Assembly: GCA_964429235.1 (NCBI GenBank) | Contig: CAYSAQ010000001.1 | Location: 266,045-330,044 of the forward strand | Direction of reading: 5' to 3' | DNA: 64,000 nt | Origin: an uncultured Candidatus Marinamargulisbacteria bacterium | GTDB lineage: Bacteria; Margulisbacteria; Riflemargulisbacteria; GWF2-35-9; DYQY01 | In this document: in pieces, positions 3,920 through 14,594 of the stretch | Layout of the letters: each line of letters begins with the position of its first letter | Numbering within the stretch: the stretch's first letter is position 1 | Notes under the pieces: model-generated | What the model was told of the DNA's origin: nothing | Database searches by the model: none | Seen by the model: only the letters and a program-made list of their open reading frames with translations | Program-made: the position numbers and the translations under genes

Positions 3920-4627
3920 TTAATTTGATAATACCCTAAACTCTAAGTCTTGTTTAATCTTTTTCCAATCAGGAAGCTTTTTTGAAAGCAAGTCATAGAA
4001 CTTTCTATCATGTTTAGAATGAGAAACATGGCATAATTCGTGAATCATTACATAATCAATTTGCTGCCTCGTTGCTTTAATAAGGTTTGGATTTAAAATA
4101 ATAGTATTGCTTCGTAAGTAACTGCCCCAACGTTTATTTAGCTTCCGAATCTTTAATAAAGGCAAATGGTCATATTCAAATAACTTAAAACATATTTCCA
4201 ACCGTTCTTGAAACTTTTGCTCTGTTTTTTTCCTAAACCATTTAGTTAAAAGATTTTTAGTTCTTATACTGTCTTTGGAGTACTTAGAATGAACATTAAT
4301 CCTGCCCATTGAAAGAGAAACATATTCTTTATAATCAGCTTGACCAACATTCAATTTGTACTGTCTGCCTAAATACAAAAAGCTCTCACCGCTAACATAT
4401 TCCTTCTCTAACTGTGACGAAAACTGTAAAAAATATCTACGTTGTTTAAGAATCCAAATAGACTTTCGTTTTAAAAAATCATATATTTTCTGCTCATTAT
4501 CAGTACTTGGTACTTTCACAATAATATTACAATTAGGAAAAACAGTAGCAGTAATTGTCTTACGGTTCTCTTCTAGTAATGAGTAATCAAAAGAAATGTT
4601 CTCATATACAAAAGTCTTGTTAATCAT
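3920..4627 (-). CDS. YgjP/DUF45-like zinc hydrolase (annotated in databases as M48-family metallopeptidase), linked to hsdR
   Basis: 235 aa with C-terminal YVMIHELCHVSHSKHDRKFYDLL (HExxH). Its ATG overlaps the hsdR stop by 4 nt (4624-4627). Confidence 0.75.
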   Translation of the reverse strand: MINKTFVYENISFDYSLLEENRKTITATVFPNCNIIVKVPSTDNEQKIYDFLKRKSIWILKQRRYFLQFSSQLEKEYVSGESFLYLGRQYKLNVGQADYKEYVSLSMGRINVHSKYSKDSIRTKNLLTKWFRKKTEQKFQERLEICFKLFEYDHLPLLKIRKLNKRWGSYLRSNTIILNPNLIKATRQQIDYVMIHELCHVSHSKHDRKFYDLLSKKLPDWKKIKQDLEFRVLSN

Positions 4628-7600
4628 TTATTCTTTATTTCCAAATTCCAAGCATCAGAAACAATACGGTCAATATCTTCAACTTTAAAAGGAATATTAT
4701 ATTCATCCCTAACAACATCAAATAAATAATCCTCTAAATCATTCCTTACTTCTCTTTCTACTTCTATGTTGCTATACCAATCAACGATCTTCTTATCATT
4801 TATCATTTTATGAAGCTCTGTAGTTATAACAGACAAAGAGTCGTCAGAGACATTGTATGTTTCCATATACTTCTTCATACTTCTAAACAATGGATGTAAT
4901 TCTTTCTTGTCTTTTATATCAGAAGGGATGTCACTATCCTCATAGTCTTTAACTTTCTGCTGATAGTTCTTAGCCTGACCTAGCAAAGCCAATAAGTCTT
5001 CTGTTTTAGCCACTCTTAACTGTGCAATAAGCTCTTTAACTTTATCTCCAAACTTTTTATAAAAATCAGGATCTTTATCCCAGTTCTCCTTAATTGTTTT
5101 CTCTGTTTGCGCTGCAATAGCTTCTGCCTTTGATTTATCCGACAATCCATTCTGATCATCCTCAATAAACTGATTGAATTCTAGTGCATCTGATAAATTA
5201 ATTGGCTTAGAAAGAATTGATACATCCTCAGACACTACATATTTATTCAAAATTCTCCTTATCTGGTCTTCGTATTTTGAAAAATCTATTATTTCTGCAT
5301 GCATTGCTTTAACTATTTTTTTAATCTCAATAAAACGTTTCAAATCAAGCACATAACGTTTCATTTTTGCATCATCAAACTTTTCAAAAAAATCTGGCAA
5401 TCCTCTACATACAGCGAAGTTCTTAATAAATGAATTAACTAGTTCATAATAACGTTCACGTTTCTCTATATCACCAGACACTTTATTTATATATTCTTGT
5501 GAATCTTTCCTGTTTTTAACATCATTAAACATTGAATGAAGATGCTGATAAACACTTTCTAAATCTGAAATCTTTTCATCAGTATCTATTAATGCTCTAT
5601 TAATATCCTCTATATCATAATTAGAAAATAATTCTAGTGCATACCTAAGATTTTTAGCATTCTTAGAGTAATCTATAATAATCCCATTAGTCTTAGACTC
5701 TTTAGCATTGTCACCATTAAAAAGCCTATTTACCCTTGCTATAGCTTGTAAAAGATTATGCTCCTTTAATTCCTTAGCAAGATATAGGAAGGTATTACGT
5801 GGAGCATCAAATCCTGTTAATAATTTATCTACTACAATAATAATCTTGCAACCGTCTGGATTGTCTTTAAAATCTTTAATAATAGATTTTTCTCTAATCT
5901 CTAAGGAATACCCGTGCTTATGCTTTTCTTTATCCAAAAATTCTGCAACAAGCTTCTTATGCTCTGGCAACTTATCGTCTGCAACATCATCTAAACTATT
6001 GTCAGATATAATCACATTGGAGTCATGAAAGCCAGCTAGCTTAAATGCTTCTTGAAATAAAACTGCTGCATATTTGGAGGGAGCAACAACCTGGGCCTTA
6101 AGGCCTGTATCTTTAAACTCTTCATAATGGTCCAAAATATCAGAAGCGATAAACTCTATTCGTTGAGAATTCTGTTCAATAATCTTTGAACTTGTAAACT
6201 TCTTCTCCAAATCTTTTCGTTGTTCTTCTGTTAAATCTTTTGTTGCTCTATCATAAAATTTATCGAGGATGCTTTGTTGCACTGATTGCTCTACAAATCT
6301 TGCTTGATATATTAATGGCAATACAGCGCCATCTTCTTCTGCCTCTGAAATTGTATAAGAATCTATTAAACCCCTAAACTTACTAACACTCTCCTTATCC
6401 TTCTTCATTAATGGTGTACCTGTAAATGCTATCTGACATGAATTAGGCAATGTCCTATTCAGCTCTATATTTGCTAAACCACCTTGGGTTCTATGAGCTT
6501 CATCTATTAAAACAAATACATTTGGATCAGTATCAGTAAAATCTCTGAACTCTTTTGATGACTCAAACTTATGAACCAGAGTTGTAATAACTCTCAAATC
6601 CTTTTCTTTGATTAATTTCAATAGCTCTTTACCATTATTTGCTTGAATAACACCTTTTTTCACATTACATGCTTCAAAAGTATCTCTGATTTGTTTATCA
6701 AGGTCTTTTCTATCTGTAACAACAACAATACGAGGTAACTCGATAGAATCCTGCTCAATAATAGCTTTAACTAGCATAACCATTGTAAGCGATTTCCCAG
6801 AACCCTGAGTATGCCATACTAGTCCACCATTTCGTCTGCCATTTTCTTTTATATCAGAAACTCTTTTAATGATTTTCTTTATAGCAAAATACTGTTGATA
6901 ACGAGCTATCTTCTTAACATTTGCATCATAGATAACAAAACCATGAACAAGCTCTAAAAGTCGCTCTGGTCGCAACAAACTATAAATACCATTATCCTGT
7001 TCTGAGATTGCTCTATCACCTACATAAGCGTCTCTTCTTAATAAATCATGATTTACTATAGTTATATCTTCTTGTTTTGAGTGGACATCAATACTCTCAT
7101 ACACAACACCATCATACTCATCTTTATCAGCACCTTTTTCTTTCCATACAGCCCAAAATTCAAATGGAGTATTCATAGTTGCATACTTAATCTCTCGAAC
7201 ATTGCAGGCAACTAACACCTGTGGGAATAAAAAGAACTTTGGTGTTTGTTCTTTTCCTTGGTTACGAATCATCTGAGTAACAGCATCAGTTACTGGCACT
7301 GAAGACTTCTTGTTCTCTATAACAGCAAAGGGGATCCCGTTAACAAACAGAACGATATCAGGTCTACGGTTATGAACCTCATCCAATTCATACTCAGCAC
7401 AAACATGGAACTTGTTATTATTAGGTGTTTCAAAATCTATAAACCTCAACTGAGGATGCACATTCTTACCGTTAATTATCTCTGACACGCCAACACCAGA
7501 TATTATCTTCGAAAAAATGTCTTCTGAGGCCTTAACTACCCCGTCAGACATATTAATATTTTCTAACTCGAATATTTGCTCTCTTATGCTTTTATCTGAT

Positions 7601-7810: not shown

Positions 7811-8656
7811 TTATTCCTTTAATCCTTTAATTTTACTTGTAGCAATTTTCTTTTCTTGAGATTTAACTCGTCTTTCTAACTTCTTTATATCTTCTTCTGG
7901 TAGTAGTTTTTCAGGGATTATACCTCTTTTTATCAAAAGATCTCTTACGTCATGATTGTTTTGAATATGCTCATTTGTTATTTCATGTTCACCATATAGA
8001 TCATCTTTTTTTACATTAAAATTTGTAATTTCTGTAGCAAGGTTTTTTGCAGTTATCGTTACTGTTGGTAAGAAGTCAGCTAGTGGTCTACCTTTAGGAA
8101 TATCCAGCTTATTTTTCATTGCTTGCGTATTCTTTCCACCAAAAAGAATGGAATCACCTTTTGACCTGATTCTGCCAAAACCTTTTTCATCTACACCACG
8201 CTCATAAATATTCTTTGATAACTCTGTTTCAGATGTTGTAAGTTTTTTTCTTGCATCAAGTCTTTCATTTAACTTTAATCGTTCTTCTATGATTTCCTGC
8301 TTTCTTGTTTGAATTGCAAAATAACTTTGGGCAAAAGCGATTACAGGTTTTGCCGAGTCTCCATTCATAGCAATTAAATAACACGCATAACGGGTAAACA
8401 TAACATCTTTTATCTCTCTTTTTGCTCCTGATCCTAAATCTACCATTTTGTTGACCTCAACAAAATGGTCTAATGGGTCCTGCTTACTATTAACACAAGC
8501 CTCAATAGCCTTATCTATAACTTTTATAAAGTTTCTCCACTCCGCATACTCAAGCAGCTCTTGTATATCTCTAGCAAACCAAAACTCAACTCCATTGTCT
8601 TCAAACATATAATCATTAAATGATTTATACATTCTCGCTATTTTCATTTTCTCCAT
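7811..8656 (-). CDS. dinD: DNA damage-inducible protein D (DinD)-like protein
   Basis: 281 aa. By eye it resembles my recollection of E. coli DinD over most of its length (FARDIQELLEYAEWRNF, FTRYACYLIAMNGDSAKPVIAFAQSYFAIQTRKQE). Only 4 nt separate it from the hsdR start. Confidence 0.7.
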   Translation of the reverse strand: MEKMKIARMYKSFNDYMFEDNGVEFWFARDIQELLEYAEWRNFIKVIDKAIEACVNSKQDPLDHFVEVNKMVDLGSGAKREIKDVMFTRYACYLIAMNGDSAKPVIAFAQSYFAIQTRKQEIIEERLKLNERLDARKKLTTSETELSKNIYERGVDEKGFGRIRSKGDSILFGGKNTQAMKNKLDIPKGRPLADFLPTVTITAKNLATEITNFNVKKDDLYGEHEITNEHIQNNHDVRDLLIKRGIIPEKLLPEEDIKKLERRVKSQEKKIATSKIKGLKE

Positions 8657-8678: not shown

Positions 8679-9827
8679 TTAATTATCTGCGTTTCTAAAC
8701 TCTTGCATTCTAATCTCACCAGTTACTAGTTTGTTTAATAAAAATTTCTTTTGTTTTTGTGTTTTTTTTAATTTTTGTTCGTATAGGTCTATTTCTTCAT
8801 CTGCATCTGTGAGAACTTGAGCGATGGCTTTTTGCTCCATTAAACAAGGTATCTTAATTTTCATATCAGCTATCATTTCCATACGAACTGAATCTACAGA
8901 ACCTTTAGCACTCATAGAAAAAACCCTTTTAGGAAATTTACTTTTAAAAATAAAGAAAAACCATTTACCACATACATCAACATCAAAACTATGAATATTA
9001 TATACTCTTTGATGATAATCAAACTTACCATTTATGTAATGGAAAATTTTACCGACACCAACACCATCTCCAGAAGTTATTACTGCCTCTCCGTCAAAGG
9101 AATATGAATTAATTCTTTCAATTGTCTGAGACCTTACAAAAAATGGATATAAACCATCATCAATTTTATTTTGAGTATCTTTAGCGCCAGTACAAATAGA
9201 AGAAAATTCTTTTATTCTTTTTTCTTCCCACTCTCCACTAAACCCCTTCAACCTAGTCTTACCAGTTAGCAACTGTTGCATTAGTCCTTTTTTTCGATCT
9301 TTCAATAAATCTATTTTTTTAGTTAATAAATCGATGCCTTCATCGAAGTTGGTGAGGACTTGGGCAATGGCTTTTTGTTCAGGTAATGGGGGCATACAAA
9401 ATTTAAGTTTTTTAATATCTGAACTGTTAACAGCTGTAAATGTTGAACCTTGTTCATATTTCTTCCATCTTAATTCATATCGCAATAAATACTGATATAT
9501 ATAACTCTGGTTACTTTTTGTTGCTCTAATTGCACAAACCCCTCTACCAATACATGCATTATGTATCGATAATGCGATATCCCCAACTGGTGCTCGAACA
9601 CTCATTAATATATCATTGGGATTACATGTTTTAGTAATTTCTGTAGTCCATTGTCGAGGTGCAGACAATCGATTATTCATATCAGTGTTTCCTTGAATTA
9701 ATGGCGTTCCGTTACCCTCTGTATTATATGACGATGATAATGGTGATTGCCCCATAATTATTAAGCATACATCATTTAATAATACGTCTTTCCAACCTTT
9801 AGGGATTTGGTTGTTAGGTTTTGTCAT
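8679..9827 (-). CDS. hsdS: Type I restriction-modification specificity subunit S (two target-recognition domains)
   Basis: 382 aa with two variable halves. Each half is followed by a conserved helix repeat: LPEQKAIAQVLTNFDEGIDLL...LLTGKTRL and LMEQKAIAQVLTDADEEIDLY...LVTGEIRM. Confidence 0.9.
   Translation of the reverse strand: MTKPNNQIPKGWKDVLLNDVCLIIMGQSPLSSSYNTEGNGTPLIQGNTDMNNRLSAPRQWTTEITKTCNPNDILMSVRAPVGDIALSIHNACIGRGVCAIRATKSNQSYIYQYLLRYELRWKKYEQGSTFTAVNSSDIKKLKFCMPPLPEQKAIAQVLTNFDEGIDLLTKKIDLLKDRKKGLMQQLLTGKTRLKGFSGEWEEKRIKEFSSICTGAKDTQNKIDDGLYPFFVRSQTIERINSYSFDGEAVITSGDGVGVGKIFHYINGKFDYHQRVYNIHSFDVDVCGKWFFFIFKSKFPKRVFSMSAKGSVDSVRMEMIADMKIKIPCLMEQKAIAQVLTDADEEIDLYEQKLKKTQKQKKFLLNKLVTGEIRMQEFRNADN
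8809..8837. repeat. hsdS conserved-region direct repeat, copy 1
   Basis: gtgagaacttgagcgatggctttttgctc matches 9352..9380 at 25 of 29 nt. It encodes the (E)QKAIAQVL helix after TRD2. Confidence 0.7.
9352..9380. repeat. hsdS conserved-region direct repeat, copy 2
   Basis: gtgaggacttgggcaatggctttttgttc matches 8809..8837 at 25 of 29 nt. It encodes the EQKAIAQVL helix after TRD1. Confidence 0.7.
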
Positions 9828-10677
9828 TAGGTGGTGTCTCCTTAATGTTTCGATTATTTTTTATTCTTTTATATTCTTGATAAATAGTTTGTTTTATTAT
9901 TATTTCAAAATCAAATCCTTTTACATTATATGAATCAATAGCTTCTATCGTTAAATCAAAAATTTCTCCTGAACTTATAAATAAATTGCGAACAGTACGA
10001 GTCATAAAATATGATAATTCTTTATATTCATCTTTTTGAACTGCAGATATTTCTTTGTTATGCCTAGTTTCTTTTACGCTTTCATTTATTCCCAGTGCAT
10101 ATTCCTTAATAATTATAAAAGCTTGTACGAATTCCCCCCACTTAATAAATAAATTTTTTTGTTTAGAATACTTTGATTTACAATAATCATTTAATAAAAC
10201 AATATGCTCTGGCATTAGTTCTTTAATTTCTAAAATCGCTAAGCCCAAAGGTCTATCCTGGTTTATTCTTTCATCATCAACTTGTTTTAATCGATATATA
10301 ATTGATAGATTATAATATGCAATACTGTAAGCTTCTTGTAGTTTATTAAATTTCATCTTTTTCTTTTGTTGTTCCTTAAACCATGTTTCAAGAAGGAAAA
10401 CAATAAGACCTACTATTAGTCCTGTTAGTATACCTGGAGCATAATCTTTCCAGAAAGATACTTTGGAGTCAATAATAATAGGATATGCATGATTTCCTTG
10501 TTGCAATGTGATTGTTTCTTTTTTTGTATATGCAACTAGTTCATTAAGTGTTGAGGAATGAACAGTTAATGCTACGTTAACTGTAGGGTTATTTAAAGAA
10601 ACATATATTTGATTATTAATAGTGGCAATATTAGTTGTTGGCATTAGGTTGATTCCTTTAAAGGGATTAGCCCCCAT
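9814..10677 (-). CDS. hypothetical single-pass membrane protein, no recognisable family
   Basis: 287-aa ORF with one strongly hydrophobic segment, APGILTGLIVGLIVFLLETWF, near residue 80-100. An alternative ATG at 10644 shares a base with the TIR stop (TAATG). The 3' end overlaps the hsdS ATG by 14 nt. Confidence 0.6.
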   Translation of the reverse strand: MGANPFKGINLMPTTNIATINNQIYVSLNNPTVNVALTVHSSTLNELVAYTKKETITLQQGNHAYPIIIDSKVSFWKDYAPGILTGLIVGLIVFLLETWFKEQQKKKMKFNKLQEAYSIAYYNLSIIYRLKQVDDERINQDRPLGLAILEIKELMPEHIVLLNDYCKSKYSKQKNLFIKWGEFVQAFIIIKEYALGINESVKETRHNKEISAVQKDEYKELSYFMTRTVRNLFISSGEIFDLTIEAIDSYNVKGFDFEIIIKQTIYQEYKRIKNNRNIKETPPNDKT

Positions 10678-11438
10678 TGACCTCGTTGTTTTTCATGCAT
10701 TACTCCTATGAATTTAATATCAATATCTTTTTTCTTGGTTATTTCTGCTACAAAAGGGAATCCAGGAACTGTAGCAGCGCCTATAGACATTGTTTGTCCA
10801 TTAAATATTTTGCCATTGTTCAATTTTATTCCTTCATTAAAACCACCCATAAACATAACCTGACTAATACATTTAAACTTTAATTCACCTTTAGTATTAT
10901 TTACTAATAATAAATAGTTAGAAATCGGCTCCATATAATGAATCGCCTTACATTCTATAATTAATTTATTATCTAGTTTTTTCACTTCAGCTATTAAGTT
11001 ATGAAATTCAGCTGGTTGCCGATATGTGTTTTCTCCAGAAATAACATCAATAAGTTGTCTAAGAGTGACTTCTAGTCCATCTTGAAATAAATTTATCCAT
11101 AATGTCTGTAATAATACTGGTGGCATTAAGCAATCATCTAATTTTACAGGAATAAATTTAGTTTCTCCTTTTGTAGCTTTTAATATTGCATTTTGCCATT
11201 CAAGTTCAACAAGTTTACTTTGCAGACTATTTTTTGATACAAAAAATATAAAGAATTTACATTTATCAAGTCCTTCATTCATTTTATCGATGACGCCATC
11301 ACCTGGTTGAATTGACCATGAGTCATAGAAAACTTTATCTTGTCCAAACGTATCTTTTAAACGAACAGCTAATTGTTCGATAATAGGTTTATCTTTGTGG
11401 TTATGTGAAAGAAAGATCACTTCAAAAAATCCTCCCAA
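10644..11438 (-). CDS. TIR-domain protein with unassigned ~130-aa C-terminal domain
   Basis: N-terminus VIFLSHNHKDKPIIEQL...KFFIFFVSKNSLQSKLVELEWQNAI fits the bacterial TIR pattern. The ORF-track start at 11438 is TTG. A GTG at 11420, with GGGAGGA upstream, overlaps the Abi stop as GTGA. Confidence 0.75.
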   Translation of the reverse strand: MGGFFEVIFLSHNHKDKPIIEQLAVRLKDTFGQDKVFYDSWSIQPGDGVIDKMNEGLDKCKFFIFFVSKNSLQSKLVELEWQNAILKATKGETKFIPVKLDDCLMPPVLLQTLWINLFQDGLEVTLRQLIDVISGENTYRQPAEFHNLIAEVKKLDNKLIIECKAIHYMEPISNYLLLVNNTKGELKFKCISQVMFMGGFNEGIKLNNGKIFNGQTMSIGAATVPGFPFVAEITKKKDIDIKFIGVMHEKQRGQWGLIPLKEST

Positions 11439-12331
11439 TTAGTAGGGAATCCATATGCGCCCAGTTCAATGCTTGGGAATTCATTAGCCAATTCATTTAA
11501 TCTATATTTCCATTTGCTTTGTGAAGCAATTTCTTGCATAAAATAATTACAAATCATAATAATACTAAAAACTTTTTGATTTGAAACAGTAGTTGGATTA
11601 TGCCATTTTGGAAATTTGTTTTTTGCAGGAATTAAAGGCTTATAACCAAGCACCCTATTAAAAAGTATTGAATGGTGAGCACAAATGTTTCTCATCGAAT
11701 GTAATGATCTAATCCAAGATAAAAGCAATTTATCAGCTATTTTATAATGCGAAGCTATTTTTTTTATTAGCTCATCGGGCAATCCTTTAAACAAGGTATG
11801 TGTTGTTCCAAATGAAACTATTTCTATAAGTATCCATATTGGTAAGTCATTATGTTTCCGCCCATATTTATTAAAGAAATTTACAACAAAGTTTTCTTTA
11901 GATTTACTTGATTTCCCTCTTTTTCTAAATGTTTCTTTTCGAATCCCTTTGATTAGGTTCTTATACTCTTTACTTGTTAGGTTAGGAAAGTTGCTTTTCT
12001 TTAAATAGCCAAATGTTCCACATTTCTCAGCAAAAAGGTATACTACTTGTGTCCTGAAAGAAATCTCAATCCTTTCAATAGCCTCTAGTAATATAATCCT
12101 GAGTCTACGATCAAATTTGTATAAGTCCCAGATTTTTTCTAAAGTTATATCTGATAGGAAGTTTTCAGAATTTTTTTGTCTAAAAGGATAGAGATACCCA
12201 GTAAATCTATAATAATTAACTGACTGTAAAACTTTAACCAGCTTTCCCTTATCAGCTATCAATCCTCTGGAAATTAATTTATTAGCTTGATCCTCAAAAG
12301 ATATCCATTGCTTGTTATATTGCATAGACAT
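11417..12331 (-). CDS. Abi_2 / AbiD-AbiF-like abortive infection family protein
   Basis: 304 aa. N-terminal ISFEDQANKLISRGL..., SVNYYRFTGYLYPF and NICAHHSILFNR are hallmarks of Abi-like (Abi_2) proteins. The likely true start is the third codon (ATG at 12325), given the AGGGGA spacing. Confidence 0.75.
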   Translation of the reverse strand: MSMQYNKQWISFEDQANKLISRGLIADKGKLVKVLQSVNYYRFTGYLYPFRQKNSENFLSDITLEKIWDLYKFDRRLRIILLEAIERIEISFRTQVVYLFAEKCGTFGYLKKSNFPNLTSKEYKNLIKGIRKETFRKRGKSSKSKENFVVNFFNKYGRKHNDLPIWILIEIVSFGTTHTLFKGLPDELIKKIASHYKIADKLLLSWIRSLHSMRNICAHHSILFNRVLGYKPLIPAKNKFPKWHNPTTVSNQKVFSIIMICNYFMQEIASQSKWKYRLNELANEFPSIELGAYGFPTNWEDFLK

Positions 12332-12342
12332 CCCCTGAAAAT

Positions 12343-12386
12343 AAAAAAACCCGTCGAATTACGCTTACATGTAGAGGCGCGACGGG
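12343..12386 (-). terminator. Rho-independent terminator-like hairpin between hsdM and the Abi gene
   Basis: On the minus strand: CCCGUCG (12386-12380), a 23-nt loop with possible extra GCG/CGC pairing, CGACGGG (12356-12350), then UUUUUUUAUUUU. It ends about 12 nt before the Abi ORF. Confidence 0.6.
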
Positions 12387-12439
12387 TATACTATTTTCAT
12401 TATACCCATAAAATGAGTAAATTAAACATATTATTATTA

Positions 12440-12457
12440 ATATTATGATCATAATAT
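12440..12457. promoter_or_regulatory. 18-bp perfect palindrome just downstream of the hsdM stop (possible operator)
   Basis: atattatgatcataatat is its own reverse complement and is centred on GATC. It lies 3 nt from the hsdM stop codon. Confidence 0.3.
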
Positions 12458-12460
12458 AAA

Positions 12461-13960
12461 CTATCCCAATATCTCTTCTAAATGCTTCTTCATCTTTTTT
12501 TCAGCAACTACAAGCTGTTTATCAATTTCAACAAGCTCTTTTTGAACTTTTGTAATATCTATCTCTTCTTCTTCCTCAAAAGTATCCACAAAACGAGTTA
12601 TATTTAAATTATAGTCGTTTTCTTCTATTTCTTTGTAATTAACAACCCTAGCGAATTTCTCTACATCTTCTCGTTTTTCATAAGTATCAAGAATCTTCTT
12701 AATATTTTTTGGTTCAAGCTTATTCTGAGCTTTTTCTGATTTAAACTCTTTTGATGCTTCAATAAAGAATATATCTTTCTTGTTTTCATTAGCACCACCA
12801 ACTTCTCGAGACTTATCTATAATCAATATAGCAACAGGTATACCTGTAGTTTGAAAAAGACCTGCTGGCAAACCAATAACAGTATCAATAATATTTTCTT
12901 CTAAAAGCTGTTTTCTTATCTTTCCTTCTGCGCCACCTCTAAACAAAACACCATGAGGAACAATCACAACAACTTTTCCTTCTTTTGCTTTTGCTGTCTC
13001 TATCATATGACTGATAAAGGCATAATCACCTTTATCTTTTGGCGCTATGCCTCTGTGAAATCTATTATATGGATCATTTTCAGCATTTTCAGCACCCCAT
13101 TTTTTTAAACTAAATGGTGGATTTGCCACTACTAAGTCAAACTTCATTAATCTATCGTCTTCTATTAGTAATGGGTGGTTTAATGTGTCACCCCACTCTA
13201 ACCTTGCCGAATCCTTACCGTGCAGAAACATATTCATTCTTGCTAAATTATAAGTAGTTCCTATCTTTTCTTGACCATATAGTGCATAGTTATTTGAACC
13301 AACTTCATCACCTGCTAATAGTAAGAGACCACCCGACCCCATAGCTGGATCACAAATACGAGAACCCTCTTTAGGTTTTGCTAATTTTGCAACAAGTTCA
13401 GCAACTTCGTGTACTGTAAAAAACTCACCCGCCTTTTTCCCTGCATCAGCACCGAACCGCTCAATCATAAACATATATGCACGACCTATAATATCTTCTT
13501 CTGCCTCACTAAGGTCTATTTTGGCAAAATCACCAATCAAATCACGCAACATTTTATTTCTCTGAGTAGTTTTACCTAGGACTGACTCAGAATTAAAATT
13601 AACTGAATCAAACAATCCTTTTAATCGCTCATTCTTATCTTCTATCTTATGCAAAGCTTTATTAATGATTTCGCCAATATTATCGGCTGACTGTTGCCTG
13701 TATATATCATAAAAACTTGCTCCTTTTGGCAATACAAACCTAAAATTCTTTAACTTCATCGAGATTCTTTCTTCATCACTACCATATCTAGCTTCAAGCT
13801 TTTCTACTTCAACTTTATGAAGGTCACTCATGTATTTATAGAACAAAAAAGTCAACGCATAATCTTTAAAAACTCCACCATCCACAGTTCCCCTAGATGA
13901 ATTTGCAGCATCCCATAAAGTACCGTTCAATACATCTTGTGTATATTTTTTAGTATTCAT
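12461..13960 (-). CDS. hsdM: Type I restriction-modification N6-adenine DNA methyltransferase subunit M
   Basis: 499 aa with the SAM motif DPAMGSGGLLL and the catalytic motif VVANPPFS. An HsdM N-terminal domain is present. Confidence 0.93.
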   Translation of the reverse strand: MNTKKYTQDVLNGTLWDAANSSRGTVDGGVFKDYALTFLFYKYMSDLHKVEVEKLEARYGSDEERISMKLKNFRFVLPKGASFYDIYRQQSADNIGEIINKALHKIEDKNERLKGLFDSVNFNSESVLGKTTQRNKMLRDLIGDFAKIDLSEAEEDIIGRAYMFMIERFGADAGKKAGEFFTVHEVAELVAKLAKPKEGSRICDPAMGSGGLLLLAGDEVGSNNYALYGQEKIGTTYNLARMNMFLHGKDSARLEWGDTLNHPLLIEDDRLMKFDLVVANPPFSLKKWGAENAENDPYNRFHRGIAPKDKGDYAFISHMIETAKAKEGKVVVIVPHGVLFRGGAEGKIRKQLLEENIIDTVIGLPAGLFQTTGIPVAILIIDKSREVGGANENKKDIFFIEASKEFKSEKAQNKLEPKNIKKILDTYEKREDVEKFARVVNYKEIEENDYNLNITRFVDTFEEEEEIDITKVQKELVEIDKQLVVAEKKMKKHLEEILG

Positions 13961-14538
13961 TACTTAGCTCCTTTTCTAATAGTTATATCAATATATTTAT
14001 TAATAATTTGCTGTTCCGTAGCCATCTTCTTTTTAGTCAAAATAAAATAATCCTTAAAGTCATTAAACTTTTCAACAACATCATATTGCTCTTTAAGGGT
14101 AAGTGATGGAATCGTAACATTGGAAATATTAGACTTATTTATAAACGGAATAGTTGTTGTTTCTAGCAAATTCAAAATCTGTTTTTGACCGTCTTTTGAA
14201 TTAAGATATAAACTTACATACTCAGGGTCAAACTGCTGAGAACTAACTCTAATAACAAAAACACCAGAAGTGCATAAATATTGAGCTGAATCCTTATTAC
14301 AAAATATTGAAGAAGTAAATCTTCCCCTATTTGTAATTAGAACATCTTTTCTTTTTAGCATACTTTTCCCACCAGTAGATAATGAGACTTTAATCAAGCC
14401 ATTGTAATCAATACTTGTATCAGTTTTAATATCCCTAGGCTGTATTACAAATGTATTACTATCAACAGAATTCTCGAGTTTCTCCCTAAATGAATGTCCT
14501 AAAAAAATATCAGCTATATCACATAATTTATTTATCAT
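13960..14538 (-). CDS. hsdS: half-size Type I specificity subunit (single target-recognition domain)
   Basis: 192 aa with an HsdS-like start (KLCDIADIFLGHSF), one TRD and one conserved helix (IPSLTLKEQYDVVEKFNDF...). Its stop shares a base with the hsdM ATG (TAATG at 13958-13962). Confidence 0.75.
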   Translation of the reverse strand: MINKLCDIADIFLGHSFREKLENSVDSNTFVIQPRDIKTDTSIDYNGLIKVSLSTGGKSMLKRKDVLITNRGRFTSSIFCNKDSAQYLCTSGVFVIRVSSQQFDPEYVSLYLNSKDGQKQILNLLETTTIPFINKSNISNVTIPSLTLKEQYDVVEKFNDFKDYFILTKKKMATEQQIINKYIDITIRKGAK

Positions 14539-14544
14539 GGCTAA

Positions 14545-14572
14545 ATTATAACAGAACAGTAGATAGTGTCAA
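14545..14572 (-). promoter_or_regulatory. Consensus sigma-70-type promoter for the half-hsdS/hsdM unit, predicted leaderless
   Basis: Minus strand reads TTGACA (14572-14567), a 16-nt spacer, TATAAT (14550-14545), then ttagcc and the ATG at 14538. There is no Shine-Dalgarno sequence. Confidence 0.55.
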
Positions 14573-14594
14573 GTACAGTATTGAGATACTGTAC
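14573..14594. promoter_or_regulatory. Perfect 9-bp inverted repeat abutting the -35 box (candidate operator)
   Basis: gtacagtat-tgag-atactgtac lies directly upstream of the TTGACA element in the minus sense. Confidence 0.35.

What the first reader, a model, noticed from the sequence alone, without database searches (positions are those of the whole stretch)
12343..12460. Terminator-like hairpin, a -10-like box and an 18-bp palindrome gate entry from hsdM into the Abi-TIR-TM-hsdS-dinD-hsdR unit
Seen in sequence: the gap holds three elements. (a) A perfect 18-bp palindrome, atattatgatcataatat, at 12440-12457. (b) A TATAAT on the minus strand at 12404-12399 with only a weak -35. (c) A GC stem, CCCGUCG...CGACGGG, followed by U7AU4 and ending about 12 nt before the Abi ORF. 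No room remains for a promoter downstream of the hairpin. Every transcript reaching the restriction subunit must therefore read through it, whether that transcript comes from hsdM read-through or from the weak promoter. In the second case the hairpin is a 5' leader attenuator. Inference: this could set a low R:M expression ratio or delay restriction and toxic effector expression. That is a known requirement of R-M systems, usually met by C proteins.
Basis: partly seen in the sequence, partly recalled or inferred. Interest (0 to 1): 0.5.

Follow-up and report, generated by a model that had tools for sequence, protein, structure and literature searches.

The report
AbiF antitoxin RNA gene, not R-M gate
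The hairpin and the -10 box between hsdM and the Abi gene are the promoter, small antitoxin RNA and built-in terminator of a known AbiF RNA-toxin/antitoxin phage-defence module inserted into a type I restriction operon, so this is a new example of a known system; the 18-bp palindrome beside it is real but has no comparative support.

Summary
All three elements are at the stated coordinates. The hairpin is not a generic terminator. It is an abiF RNA motif (Rfam RF03085, 27.2 bits, below the gathering score of 37), the small RNA that sits upstream of Abi_2/AbiF HEPN toxin genes. The same motif lies upstream of all 80 of 80 homologous Abi_2 genes retrieved. Across 75 sequences, 96.9% of pair cells form a standard pair and 8 of 10 pairs show compensatory changes. 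A covariance model built without the window scores the window element at 60.4 bits (E 7.5e-16).

The TATAAT box sits at the family's fixed promoter position, 6 nt before a conserved A, so I predict the transcript starts at A12392. The T-rich tail is also conserved.

By contrast, only 2 of 80 hsdM relatives carry the motif. It therefore belongs to the Abi cassette, not to hsdM. The Abi protein is a full-length homologue of PbAbiF (PDB 8VZ6).

Most likely mechanism: a roughly 50-nt antitoxin RNA ends at its own hairpin and U-tract, and read-through yields abiF and the genes downstream. A lowered R:M ratio is a possible side effect but is untested.

The palindrome is the only one of its size in the window. 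It is expected about 0.4 times per window by chance and is absent from the closest relative. Verdict: new member of a known kind.

The parts
12340..12392 (-). Predicted AbiF antitoxin small RNA (abiF motif, AbiFr-like). It runs from the predicted start at A12392 to an end inside the U-tract, about 45-55 nt.
   Evidence: Rfam RF03085 hit at 12386-12349, 27.2 bits, E 0.0034. My own model R1, built without the window, scores 60.4 bits, E 7.5e-16 over 12392-12340. It aligns column by column with 74 upstream regions of Abi_2 homologues.
12380..12387 (-). 5' arm of helix P1 (ACCCGUCG). It pairs with 12349-12356.
   Evidence: The 7 pairs counted (alignment columns 7-13 with 54-60) are 98.7% paired across 75 sequences, and all 7 show compensatory changes. 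RNAalifold adds the A12387-U12349 pair. The window's own C-to-U change at 12382 is compensated by G-to-A at 12354.
12349..12356 (-). 3' arm of helix P1 (CGACGGGU).
12377..12379 (-). 5' arm of helix P2 (CGC). It pairs with GCG at 12362-12364.
   Evidence: Columns 14-16 with 45-47 are 92.7% paired. Pair 14-47 occurs as CG 20, AU 18, GU 15 and GC 5. This matches the second helix of the Rfam consensus.
12362..12364 (-). 3' arm of helix P2 (GCG).
12373..12378 (-). Conserved GCCUCU box, spanning the top of P2 and the start of the terminal loop.
   Evidence: G15 and C16 are invariant, and C17, U18, C19 and U20 are at least 90% conserved in 75 sequences. The same letters appear in the Rfam consensus.
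12357..12361 (-). 3' internal loop UAAUU between P2 and P1. It corresponds to the single-stranded bulge of the family.
   Evidence: This is the unpaired 3' stretch in the Rfam structure line and in alignment A2. A review of the PbAbiF structure says bulge nucleotides of the RNA block the HEPN site (PMC12737573). Equating that bulge with this loop is my inference.
12338..12349 (-). U-tract U7-A-U4, the intrinsic-terminator tail of the RNA.
   Evidence: Read from the sequence. 74 of 75 family members have at least 5 T in the 8 nt after the stem, and the window's run of 7 is among the longest.
12399..12404 (-). -10 hexamer TATAAT of the small-RNA promoter.
   Evidence: It matches 6 of 6. It sits in the family's fixed -10 column, where 49 of 75 have at least 4 of 6 matches, and it lies 6 nt before the conserved A.
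12421..12426 (-). Weak -35 hexamer TTTAAT (3 of 6, spacer 16 nt).
   Evidence: It is positionally homologous to TTTACA in the closest relative L085, with a shared ATGTTTA context.
12392..12392 (-). Predicted transcription start (A).
   Evidence: This column is A in 72 of 75 sequences, is preceded by a pyrimidine in 74 of 75, and lies 7 nt after the -10 hexamer. The start is inferred and has not been mapped.
12440..12457 (.). Perfect 18-bp palindrome ATATTATGATCATAATAT with a GATC centre, at about -48 to -65 from the predicted start. Function unknown, possibly none.
   Evidence: It is not conserved in L085 or in 80 hsdM relatives.
12331..12336 (-). Shine-Dalgarno-like AGGGGA, 5 nt before ATG 12325.
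   Evidence: Read from the sequence. The start at 12325 agrees with the database protein P0001 of 302 aa and with the gene calls on identical contigs.
11417..12325 (-). abiF-type toxin gene (Abi_2 / AbiD-F HEPN RNase, 302 aa, RNICAH at residues 212-217).
   Evidence: Pfam Abi_2 E 9.7e-53. PADLOC AbiD E 8.3e-71. PDB 8VZ6_A PbAbiF E 1.8e-37 over residues 3-299. HEPN motif found.
12461..13960 (-). hsdM. Its transcripts run into the small-RNA gene and its terminator.
   Evidence: Pfam N6_Mtase E 1.2e-99 and HsdM_N.
14545..14572 (-). Consensus sigma-70 promoter (TTGACA, 16-nt spacer, TATAAT, with TG) of the half-hsdS/hsdM operon. It is a possible second source of transcripts through the small-RNA gene.
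   Evidence: 12 of 12 match. Sequence read.

Best explanation
The gap between hsdM and the Abi gene holds the control region of an AbiF-type type III toxin-antitoxin (abortive infection) module. The module has been inserted between hsdM and hsdS of a type I restriction-modification operon.

Proposed mechanism:
1. A promoter (weak -35 TTTAAT, perfect -10 TATAAT at 12404-12399) starts transcription at about A12392.
2. The first roughly 50 nt fold into the conserved two-tier abiF hairpin: P1 of 8 bp, an internal loop, P2 of 3 bp, and a GCCUCU-containing loop.
3. The base helix is followed directly by U7AU4, so the same hairpin acts as an intrinsic terminator. Most transcripts end there and yield a small RNA.
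4. That RNA binds the AbiF HEPN RNase dimer and keeps it inactive.
5. The fraction that reads through is the only evident route to abiF translation (RBS AGGGGA, ATG 12325). It probably also supplies the tightly packed genes behind it: TIR, a single-TM protein, hsdS, Bro-N, hsdR and YgjP.
6. Transcripts from the strong hsdM-operon promoter cross the same RNA gene, so they would be cut down at the same terminator.

Status of each step:
- Shown here: family membership of the RNA and the protein, the covarying structure, the conserved promoter position, the conserved U-tail, and linkage to Abi_2 rather than to hsdM.
- Taken from the literature on homologues: the antitoxin function, protein binding, and the termination/read-through balance.
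- Inferred only: the effect on hsdS and hsdR expression.
- Not part of the conserved module: the 18-bp palindrome, most likely a lineage-specific accident of an AT-rich spacer.
For: RNA family:
- Rfam abiF RNA RF03085 matches 12386-12349 over the full model, with compensated stem differences.
- 80 of 80 loci with Abi_2 homologues (35-50% identity, many phyla) carry the motif upstream.
- In MAFFT alignment A2, 96.9% of pair cells are paired, against 85.8% in shuffles (0 of 500 reach the observed value) and 32-46% when partners are slid. 8 of 10 pairs show double changes, in 90 cells.
- RNAalifold independently recovers P1.
- Model R1, built without the window, hits the window once at 60.4 bits, E 7.5e-16.
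- Two aligned relatives pass Rfam's own gathering score: L060 at 41.3 bits and L054 at 37.1 bits.

Promoter and tail:
- The -35, the -10 and the YA start sit in fixed columns across the family.
- The tail is T-rich in 74 of 75 sequences.
- The stem-to-ATG distance is typically 23-30 nt and is 25 nt here, so there is no room for another promoter in any member.

Linkage: only 2 of 80 hsdM relatives have the motif. In 48 of 74 the next gene follows hsdM within 20 nt.

Protein: Abi_2, AbiD, full-length homologue of PbAbiF 8VZ6, RNICAH HEPN motif.

Literature:
- In C. difficile, a promoter drives an abiF-motif RNA followed by a terminator and then abiF. The short RNA dominates, read-through gives abiF, and the RNA neutralises the toxin in cis and in trans by binding it (PMC12373285).
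- AbiF/ncRNA is a type III TA and the ancestor of Cas13 (PMC12737573; PMC13064643).
- Abi2/AbiF/AbiD genes are described as embedded in R-M operons (PMC3710099).
- At least 11 of my 80 loci repeat the order hsdM, motif, Abi, then hsdS or hsdR.
Against: - The Rfam score (27.2 bits) is below the curated gathering score (37).
- No expression data exist for this locus. The start site, the 3' end, termination efficiency and RNA-protein binding are all unmeasured.
- The hairpin is atypical for an intrinsic terminator. It has 23 nt between the arms of the base helix, and the simple terminator scan did not call it.
- The -35 is weak, so the strength of the RNA's own promoter is uncertain.
- In the studied C. 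difficile system the terminator is a separate hairpin downstream of two motif copies. The motif doubling as terminator is my inference from the conserved T-tail.
- My motif finder required at least 4 T after the stem. No locus was lost to that rule.
Confidence: 0.85

Rival explanations
1. First reader's view. The hairpin is primarily the hsdM terminator or a leader attenuator that belongs to the restriction-modification system, and it sets a low R:M ratio or delays restriction.
For: The hairpin with its U-tract lies 75-110 nt after the hsdM stop. It precedes a tightly packed run of genes that ends in hsdR. A strong promoter lies upstream of half-hsdS/hsdM, and a half-size HsdS is encoded with HsdM, so methylase could be made without read-through. 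The order hsdM, motif, Abi, hsdS/hsdR recurs in at least 11 loci.
Against: The element follows Abi_2 in 80 of 80 loci but follows hsdM in only 2 of 80. Most Abi_2 loci that carry it have no R-M genes nearby. Relatives of this hsdM usually have the next gene within 20 nt and no such hairpin. Any effect on R:M is therefore a by-product of the inserted cassette and not its evolved role. Internal promoters for hsdS and hsdR are not excluded.
Confidence: 0.1
2. The RNA acts only in cis, as a riboswitch-like transcription attenuator of abiF, and has no trans-acting antitoxin role in this clade.
For: The conserved T-tail directly after the stem and the lack of room for a downstream promoter show that termination and read-through are built in. 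The C. difficile RNA reduced downstream expression 17-fold in cis.
Against: The loop and internal-loop sequences (GCCUCU and the A/U-rich 3' loop) are conserved beyond what a terminator needs. Homologous RNAs bind their AbiF proteins and rescue in trans. The window protein is a full-length homologue of the RNA-bound PbAbiF.
Confidence: 0.05
3. The 18-bp palindrome is a functional site: an operator for a dimeric regulator, an UP-like element compensating for the weak -35, or a Dam-sensitive GATC switch controlling the small-RNA promoter.
For: It is a perfect 9+9 palindrome and the only one of 16 bp or more in 64 kb. It lies at about -48 to -65 from the predicted start, where activators and UP elements act. 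It is unlikely within the gap alone (35 of 20000 shuffles). The promoter has an unusually weak -35 for its family.
Against: About 0.4 such palindromes are expected per window, and 32% of shuffles have one. It is not present in the closest relative with the same layout (L085). None of 80 hsdM relatives has a palindrome of 14 bp or more after the stop. There is no second copy within 3 mismatches and no excess of core-like sites, 10 against 10.4 expected. The four other contigs that carry it are 100% identical and so uninformative. No HTH regulator was found among the operon's proteins.
Confidence: 0.15

Closest known systems
abiF RNA motif (Rfam RF03085; cited to Weinberg et al. 2017 by PMC12373285)
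   Same: It has the same two-helix hairpin with a 3' internal loop and the GCCUCU box. It lies immediately upstream of an Abi_2 gene on the same strand. It matches the model full-length with compensated differences. It aligns with members that pass the gathering score.
   Different: It scores 27.2 bits, below Rfam's 37-bit gathering score. Only 2 of 14 related loci I tested reached E 0.01 or better, so the curated model under-detects this clade. The window has U-A where the consensus has C-G in P1, and a short terminal loop with no third helix.
AbiF/AbiFr type III toxin-antitoxin of a Prevotellaceae bacterium (PDB 8VZ6; Zilberzwige-Tal et al. 2025, known to me through PMC12373285, PMC12737573 and PMC13064643)
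   Same: The toxin is a full-length homologue (E 1.8e-37) with the R-N-x-C-x-H HEPN motif. A conserved small RNA is encoded in cis just upstream.
   Different: Protein similarity is modest, and the window protein's nearest relatives are only 57% identical or less. RNA binding, processing and toxicity are untested here. I could not read the primary paper, so a nucleotide-level comparison with the crystallised RNA was not made.
RCd22-AbiF of Clostridioides difficile prophage phi027 (PMC12373285)
   Same: The layout is the same: a sigma-70-type promoter, an abiF-motif RNA, a Rho-independent terminator, and abiF reached only by read-through with no promoter in between.
   Different: RCd22 has two motif copies and a separate terminator hairpin and is about 100-130 nt long. 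Here there is one motif whose own base helix carries the U-tract, giving about 50 nt. Here the module sits inside a type I R-M operon, not in a prophage lysis module.
HEPN/Abi genes embedded in R-M operons (Anantharaman et al. 2013, PMC3710099). PrrC between hsdM and hsdS is a related case I recall from memory.
   Same: An RNase-type abortive-infection toxin gene lies between hsdM and hsdS/hsdR of a type I system, and the arrangement recurs in unrelated genomes.
   Different: That paper does not describe the RNA, its promoter or its terminator, or what they imply for expression of the downstream R-M genes. PrrC is a different protein family regulated by protein-protein contact with the R-M enzyme. 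The PrrC comparison rests on my memory and was not tested.
ToxIN and other type III TA systems
   Same: An RNA antitoxin gene precedes the toxin gene, and a terminator between them sets an excess of antitoxin RNA over toxin mRNA (general knowledge; analogy drawn in PMC12373285).
   Different: ToxI is a tandem array of repeats processed by the toxin. Here there is a single structured hairpin and an unrelated HEPN toxin.

Membership tests
Rfam RF03085 abiF RNA | Bit score at or above the curated gathering score (37 bits) | tested here: not met
   27.2 bits, E 0.0034 over the gap and 0.023 over 1.2 kb. Relatives in the same alignment do pass: L060 at 41.3 and L054 at 37.1 bits.
Rfam RF03085 abiF RNA | Consensus secondary structure: a 6-7 bp base helix, a 3-bp second helix and a 3' internal loop | tested here: met
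   All pairs form in the window. Across 75 sequences 96.9% of cells are paired and 8 of 10 pairs are compensated.
Rfam RF03085 abiF RNA | Conserved loop sequence GCCUCU | tested here: met
   GCCUCU at 12378-12373. These columns are invariant or at least 90% conserved.
Rfam RF03085 abiF RNA | Location directly upstream of an Abi_2/abiF gene on the same strand | tested here: met
   The stem ends 25 nt before ATG 12325 of an Abi_2 gene. The same holds in 80 of 80 homologous loci.
Rfam RF03085 abiF RNA | Recognised by a model of bona fide relatives built without the candidate | tested here: met
   Model R1, from 74 sequences excluding the window, gives 60.4 bits, E 7.5e-16 and a single hit in 64 kb.
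AbiF/AbiFr type III toxin-antitoxin | Toxin of the Abi_2/AbiD-F family with an intact HEPN R-phi-x-x-x-H motif | tested here: met
   Pfam Abi_2 E 9.7e-53. PADLOC AbiD. 8VZ6_A E 1.8e-37. RNICAH at residues 212-217, with these columns invariant or nearly so in alignment A1.
AbiF/AbiFr type III toxin-antitoxin | Layout of promoter, small RNA, terminator and toxin gene, with no promoter between RNA and toxin | tested here: met
   Met at the sequence level only. The -10 and -35 sit in conserved columns, the U-tail is conserved, and the stem-to-ATG gap is 25 nt.
AbiF/AbiFr type III toxin-antitoxin | The RNA binds the toxin and neutralises it; the toxin is growth-inhibitory on its own | not testable with these tools
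   Needs expression, co-purification and toxicity assays. It has been shown only for homologues (PMC12373285; reviews PMC12737573 and PMC13064643).
AbiF/AbiFr type III toxin-antitoxin | Protection against phage | not testable with these tools
   There is no isolate and no phage assay. The host organism was not identified, because the locus was found only on metagenome contigs.
Intrinsic (Rho-independent) terminator | G+C-rich stem immediately followed by a U-tract | tested here: met
   P1 is 8 bp, 6 of them G-C, and is followed by U7AU4. Free energy is -14.3 kcal/mol.
Intrinsic (Rho-independent) terminator | Compact hairpin with a short loop (3-8 nt) | tested here: not met
   There are 23 nt between the arms of P1, partly closed by the 3-bp P2. 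The consensus terminator scan did not report it.
Intrinsic (Rho-independent) terminator | Transcripts actually end at the U-tract | not testable with these tools
   Needs Term-seq, 3' RACE or in vitro transcription.
C-protein (controller) regulation of R-M systems | A small HTH controller gene in the operon, with its palindromic C-box upstream of the C and R genes | tested here: not met
   None of the 10 operon ORFs of 60 aa or more has an HTH/controller Pfam domain. The palindrome is not repeated and not conserved. ORFs under 60 aa were not examined.

The most novel reading that the evidence does not exclude
In R-M-embedded AbiF cassettes the antitoxin hairpin is a shared checkpoint. The strong, apparently leaderless hsdM-operon promoter, not the RNA's own weak promoter, supplies most of the antitoxin RNA as the 3' end of the methylase transcript. 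The same hairpin then limits read-through into abiF, TIR and the restriction subunit. AbiF neutralisation would thereby be tied to continued transcription of the R-M operon, so that loss or phage shut-off of the operon releases the toxin. AbiF binding to the nascent hairpin could also tune how much R subunit is made.
Probability: 0.12. Interest if true: 0.6.

Novelty: new member of a known kind. Interest (0 to 1): 0.3.

Why it matters
- It re-labels an apparent 'terminator plus promoter' in an R-M operon as the RNA half of an AbiF toxin-antitoxin module, the family now regarded as the ancestor of Cas13.
- It shows that the curated Rfam model misses most of a large, phylogenetically wide clade of these RNAs. 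In that clade the antitoxin hairpin itself carries the terminator U-tract and sits at a fixed distance from its promoter.
- For annotation, Abi_2 genes in defence islands should be annotated together with this upstream RNA.
- For biology, it raises a testable side question: how do hsdS and hsdR get expressed downstream of a cassette that ends most transcripts?
- It does not reveal a new kind of system.

Tried and rejected
- Generic terminator of hsdM: rejected because the motif tracks Abi_2 (80 of 80 loci) and not hsdM (2 of 80).
- Other Rfam families hitting the gap (RprA, OmrA-B, Ref84, GlsR20, rli40): all far below their gathering scores. The hits are driven by the terminator-like stem and U-run.
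- Palindrome as a repeated operator: no second copy within 3 mismatches, and core-like sites are at chance level.
- Palindrome as a conserved feature of the hsdM 3' flank or of the cassette: absent in L085 and in all 80 hsdM relatives. The four contigs that do carry it are identical to the window and uninformative.
- Identifying the organism: the genome-contig scan did not return the window's own genome. Exact-protein look-up returned only metagenome contigs.
- Reading the primary AbiF/Cas13 paper: not held. The Weinberg 2017 main text does not mention abiF by name.
- TIR and the single-TM protein as part of the AbiF module: no TIR or TM homologue lies next to any of the 80 Abi_2 homologues. 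L085 does have a 29%-identical TM-protein homologue after its Abi gene, which remains unexplained.
Full report
**1. The observation**

All genes in this region lie on the minus strand:

| Gene | Coordinates |
|---|---|
| half-size hsdS | 14538-13960 |
| hsdM | 13960-12461 |
| gap | 12460-12332 |
| Abi_2 gene | 12331/12325-11417 |
| TIR_2 gene | 11438-10644 |
| 276-287 aa protein, no Pfam hit, one hydrophobic segment | ORF 10677-9814 (called start 10644) |
| full-length hsdS | 9827-8679 |
| Bro-N protein | 8656-7811 |
| hsdR | 7806-4624 |
| YgjP-like peptidase | 4627-3920 |

- The perfect 18-bp palindrome is at 12440-12457.
- TATAAT is at 12404-12399.
- The stem CCCGUCG/CGACGGG is at 12386-12380 and 12356-12350.
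- U7AU4 is at 12349-12338.

The database version of the Abi protein (P0001, 302 aa, 100% identical) starts at the second ATG, 12325. That ATG has an AGGGGA Shine-Dalgarno sequence 5 nt upstream.

**2. What the hairpin is**

A scan of the gap against Rfam returned one meaningful match. It is abiF RNA (RF03085) at 12386-12349 on the minus strand, over the full length of the model, at 27.2 bits (gathering score 37) and E 0.0034.
- Consensus: CCCGCCAAGCCUCU[7]GCUCAAAUCGGCGGGU
- Window: CCCGUCGCGCCUCU[8]GCGUAAUUCGACGGGU

The differences in both helices are compensated. Because the score is sub-threshold, I tested membership independently.

*Loci collected.* I took homologues of the Abi protein, aligned 26 of them, and used the alignment to fetch 80 genomic loci from many phyla. 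They are 35-50% identical to the window protein.

*Motif present in all of them.* Every one of the 80 carries the same element just upstream of the gene. Its form is AGCAnACCCGCC..GCCUCU..loop..GC..A/U-rich..GGCGGG followed by a T-run.

*Covariation.* I made a MAFFT alignment of the 74 distinct sequences plus the window (A2) and counted pairs on a structure I specified:
- 96.9% of pair cells form standard pairs. Shuffles give 85.8%, and 0 of 500 reach the observed value. Sliding the partners gives 32-46%.
- 8 of 10 pairs show changes on both sides, in 90 cells.
- All 7 pairs of the base helix are compensated.
- The outer pair of the second helix occurs as C-G, A-U, G-U and G-C.

RNAalifold recovers the base helix on its own and adds an eighth A-U pair.

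*Independent model.* A covariance model built from the 74 foreign sequences only (A4, R1) was run over the whole window with filters off. It hits 12392-12340 at 60.4 bits, E 7.5e-16. The next best hit is 14.7 bits.

*Rfam coverage.* Two of the aligned relatives reach Rfam's own gathering score: L060 at 41.3 bits and L054 at 37.1 bits. The other 12 loci tested in that call do not reach E 0.01. The curated model is simply narrow for this clade.

I conclude that the hairpin is an abiF-family RNA.

**3. The -10 box belongs to it**

When the 75 upstream regions are lined up on the first base of the stem, the promoter elements fall in fixed columns:
- A TTGaca-like -35.
- A TAtaaT -10, with at least 4 of 6 matches in 49 of 75 sequences.
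- A G at -14 in 40 of 75.
- Seven nucleotides after the -10, a pyrimidine followed by an A that is present in 72 of 75.

The window's TATAAT occupies exactly the -10 column, which puts the predicted start at A12392. Its -35 is poor: TTTAAT, 3 of 6, with a 16-nt spacer. It is positionally homologous to TTTACA in the closest relative, L085.

The tail after the stem is T-rich in 74 of 75 sequences, and the window's U7 is among the longest runs. The distance from stem to start codon is typically 23-30 nt and is 25 nt here. In the whole family, therefore, the toxin gene can be reached only by reading through the hairpin.

**4. It travels with Abi, not with hsdM**

I fetched 80 loci encoding relatives of this hsdM, at 65-85% identity.
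- Model R1 finds the motif in only two of them.
- L085 has the same order: half-hsdS, hsdM, promoter plus motif, Abi_2. L129 is the other locus.
- In 48 of 74 loci the next gene follows hsdM within 20 nt, and none has the hairpin.

Conversely, most of the 80 Abi_2 loci have no R-M genes nearby. At least 19 do, and about 11 repeat the order hsdM, motif, Abi, hsdS/hsdR. This matches the published remark that Abi2/AbiF/AbiD genes are 'embedded in R-M operons' (PMC3710099).

In L085 the Abi protein is only 33% identical to the window's, whereas hsdM is 85% identical. This suggests that cassettes are exchanged at this position.

**5. The protein**

- It matches Pfam Abi_2 (E 9.7e-53).
- It matches PADLOC AbiD (E 8.3e-71).
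- It aligns over its full length with the only solved relative, 8VZ6 chain A, the Prevotellaceae AbiF that was crystallised with its RNA (E 1.8e-37).
- It has the HEPN motif RNICAH at residues 212-217, in columns that are invariant or nearly so among homologues.

**6. How it most likely works**

This part rests on studies of homologues.

In C. difficile, a SigA promoter drives a short RNA carrying abiF motifs. Most transcripts stop at a Rho-independent terminator, and read-through gives abiF mRNA. Deleting the RNA raises abiF expression 17-fold. [quoted passage not shown]

Reviews summarise the Prevotellaceae work. AbiF with its RNA is a type III toxin-antitoxin, the RNA blocks the HEPN site, and the system is ancestral to Cas13 (PMC12737573; PMC13064643).

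Applied to this locus:
1. A roughly 50-nt RNA is made from A12392 to the U-tract.
2. The RNA holds AbiF inactive.
3. A minority of read-through transcripts encode AbiF and, because the downstream genes overlap or nearly abut, probably also the TIR protein, the TM protein, HsdS, the Bro-N protein, HsdR and YgjP.

What differs from the C. difficile case is that a single motif appears to double as the terminator. That is my inference from the conserved T-tail.

**7.

Transcripts from the consensus promoter upstream of half-hsdS (14572-14545, 12 of 12 with TG) must also cross this RNA gene. Polarity on hsdS and hsdR is therefore plausible. The half-size HsdS encoded with HsdM could allow methylation without read-through.

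But this is a by-product of an inserted toxin-antitoxin cassette, not an evolved R-M controller, and nothing here measures it. Promoter-like sites inside the cassette exist, for example 9954-9925. They are no more frequent than in shuffles (66 found against 68 expected), so dependence on read-through cannot be decided from sequence.

**8. The palindrome**

It is real and is the only perfect palindrome of 16 bp or more in the window.
- Composition-preserving block shuffles give 0.40 palindromes of that size per window, and 32% of shuffles have at least one. It is improbable only if the gap is considered alone (35 of 20000).
- It has no second copy within 3 mismatches. Its core shows no excess of near-matches, 10 against 10.4 expected.
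- It is absent from L085, which shares the layout, and from the 130 nt after the stop in all 80 hsdM relatives.
- The four other contigs that contain it are identical to the window across the whole gap and say nothing about constraint.

It sits at about -48 to -65 from the predicted start, where an UP-like element or an activator could act on a promoter with a weak -35. That possibility remains open, at roughly 0.15. Chance in an 87% A+T spacer is the simpler reading.

**9. Verdict**

- The element is a new, sub-threshold member of the known abiF RNA family, within a known type of module (AbiF type III TA), in a known kind of genomic setting (inside a type I R-M operon).

Interest is modest. 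It rests on three points:
- Rfam under-detects this clade.
- The antitoxin hairpin also serves as the terminator.
- How the restriction genes are expressed downstream of such a cassette remains open.

Noticed in passing
window 14573-14594 (minus strand), next to the promoter at 14545-14572: A perfect 9-4-9 inverted repeat, GTACAGTAT-ctca-ATACTGTAC, abuts the -35 of the 12-of-12 consensus promoter of the half-hsdS/hsdM operon. The -10 ends only 6 nt before the ATG at 14538, so the mRNA would be leaderless. This looks more like an operator for the R-M operon than the 18-bp palindrome does.
   Followed up: no
window 13960-14538 and 8679-9827; L085 460-1047; L007 2442-3032: The locus encodes two specificity subunits: a half-size HsdS (192 aa) translationally coupled to hsdM, and a full-length HsdS (382 aa) downstream of the inserted cassette. 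The half-HsdS plus hsdM pair is conserved in relatives (53.6% and 84.6% identity in L085).
   Followed up: partly
L085 2546-4400: The closest hsdM relative (85% identical) has the same insertion point and an abiF motif. However, its Abi_2 protein is only 33% identical to the window's. It is followed by a 29%-identical homologue of the window's single-TM protein, with no TIR gene. This suggests cassette shuffling at the hsdM-hsdS junction and a possible link between the TM protein and Abi.
   Followed up: partly
L129 4009-5661: An abiF-like RNA motif (39.1 bits, 5031-5099) lies after a RhuM-family gene. It lies upstream of a 175-aa ORF that has no Pfam hit and no similarity to Abi_2. This may be an orphan motif, or the motif may be paired with a different protein.
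   Followed up: partly
L029 118-300; L016 about 5380-5420: L029 carries two tandem copies of the motif upstream of its Abi_2 gene, reminiscent of the two-motif C. difficile RNA. In L016 the promoter spacer contains CCCGCCGATCGGCGGG, a palindrome made of the P1 stem sequence.
   Followed up: no
loci L001-L085 (14 tested): Rfam RF03085 detects only 2 of 14 tested loci at E 0.01 or better, although all carry a clearly homologous, covarying motif. The curated model is too narrow for this clade of Abi_2-associated RNAs.
   Followed up: partly
window 9814-11438: A TIR_2 protein (weak PADLOC hits to ThsB and PDC-S66) is followed by a 276-aa protein with one predicted TM helix (residues about 67-91) and no family hit. 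Both overlap their neighbours. This may be a separate TIR-effector defence pair. No homologue lies next to any of the 80 other Abi_2 genes.
   Followed up: partly
window 7811-8656 and 3920-4627: The Bro-N protein between hsdS and hsdR matches the PADLOC candidate defence family PDC-S13 (E 7.5e-114). A YgjP-like metallopeptidase gene overlaps the end of hsdR by 4 nt.
   Followed up: no
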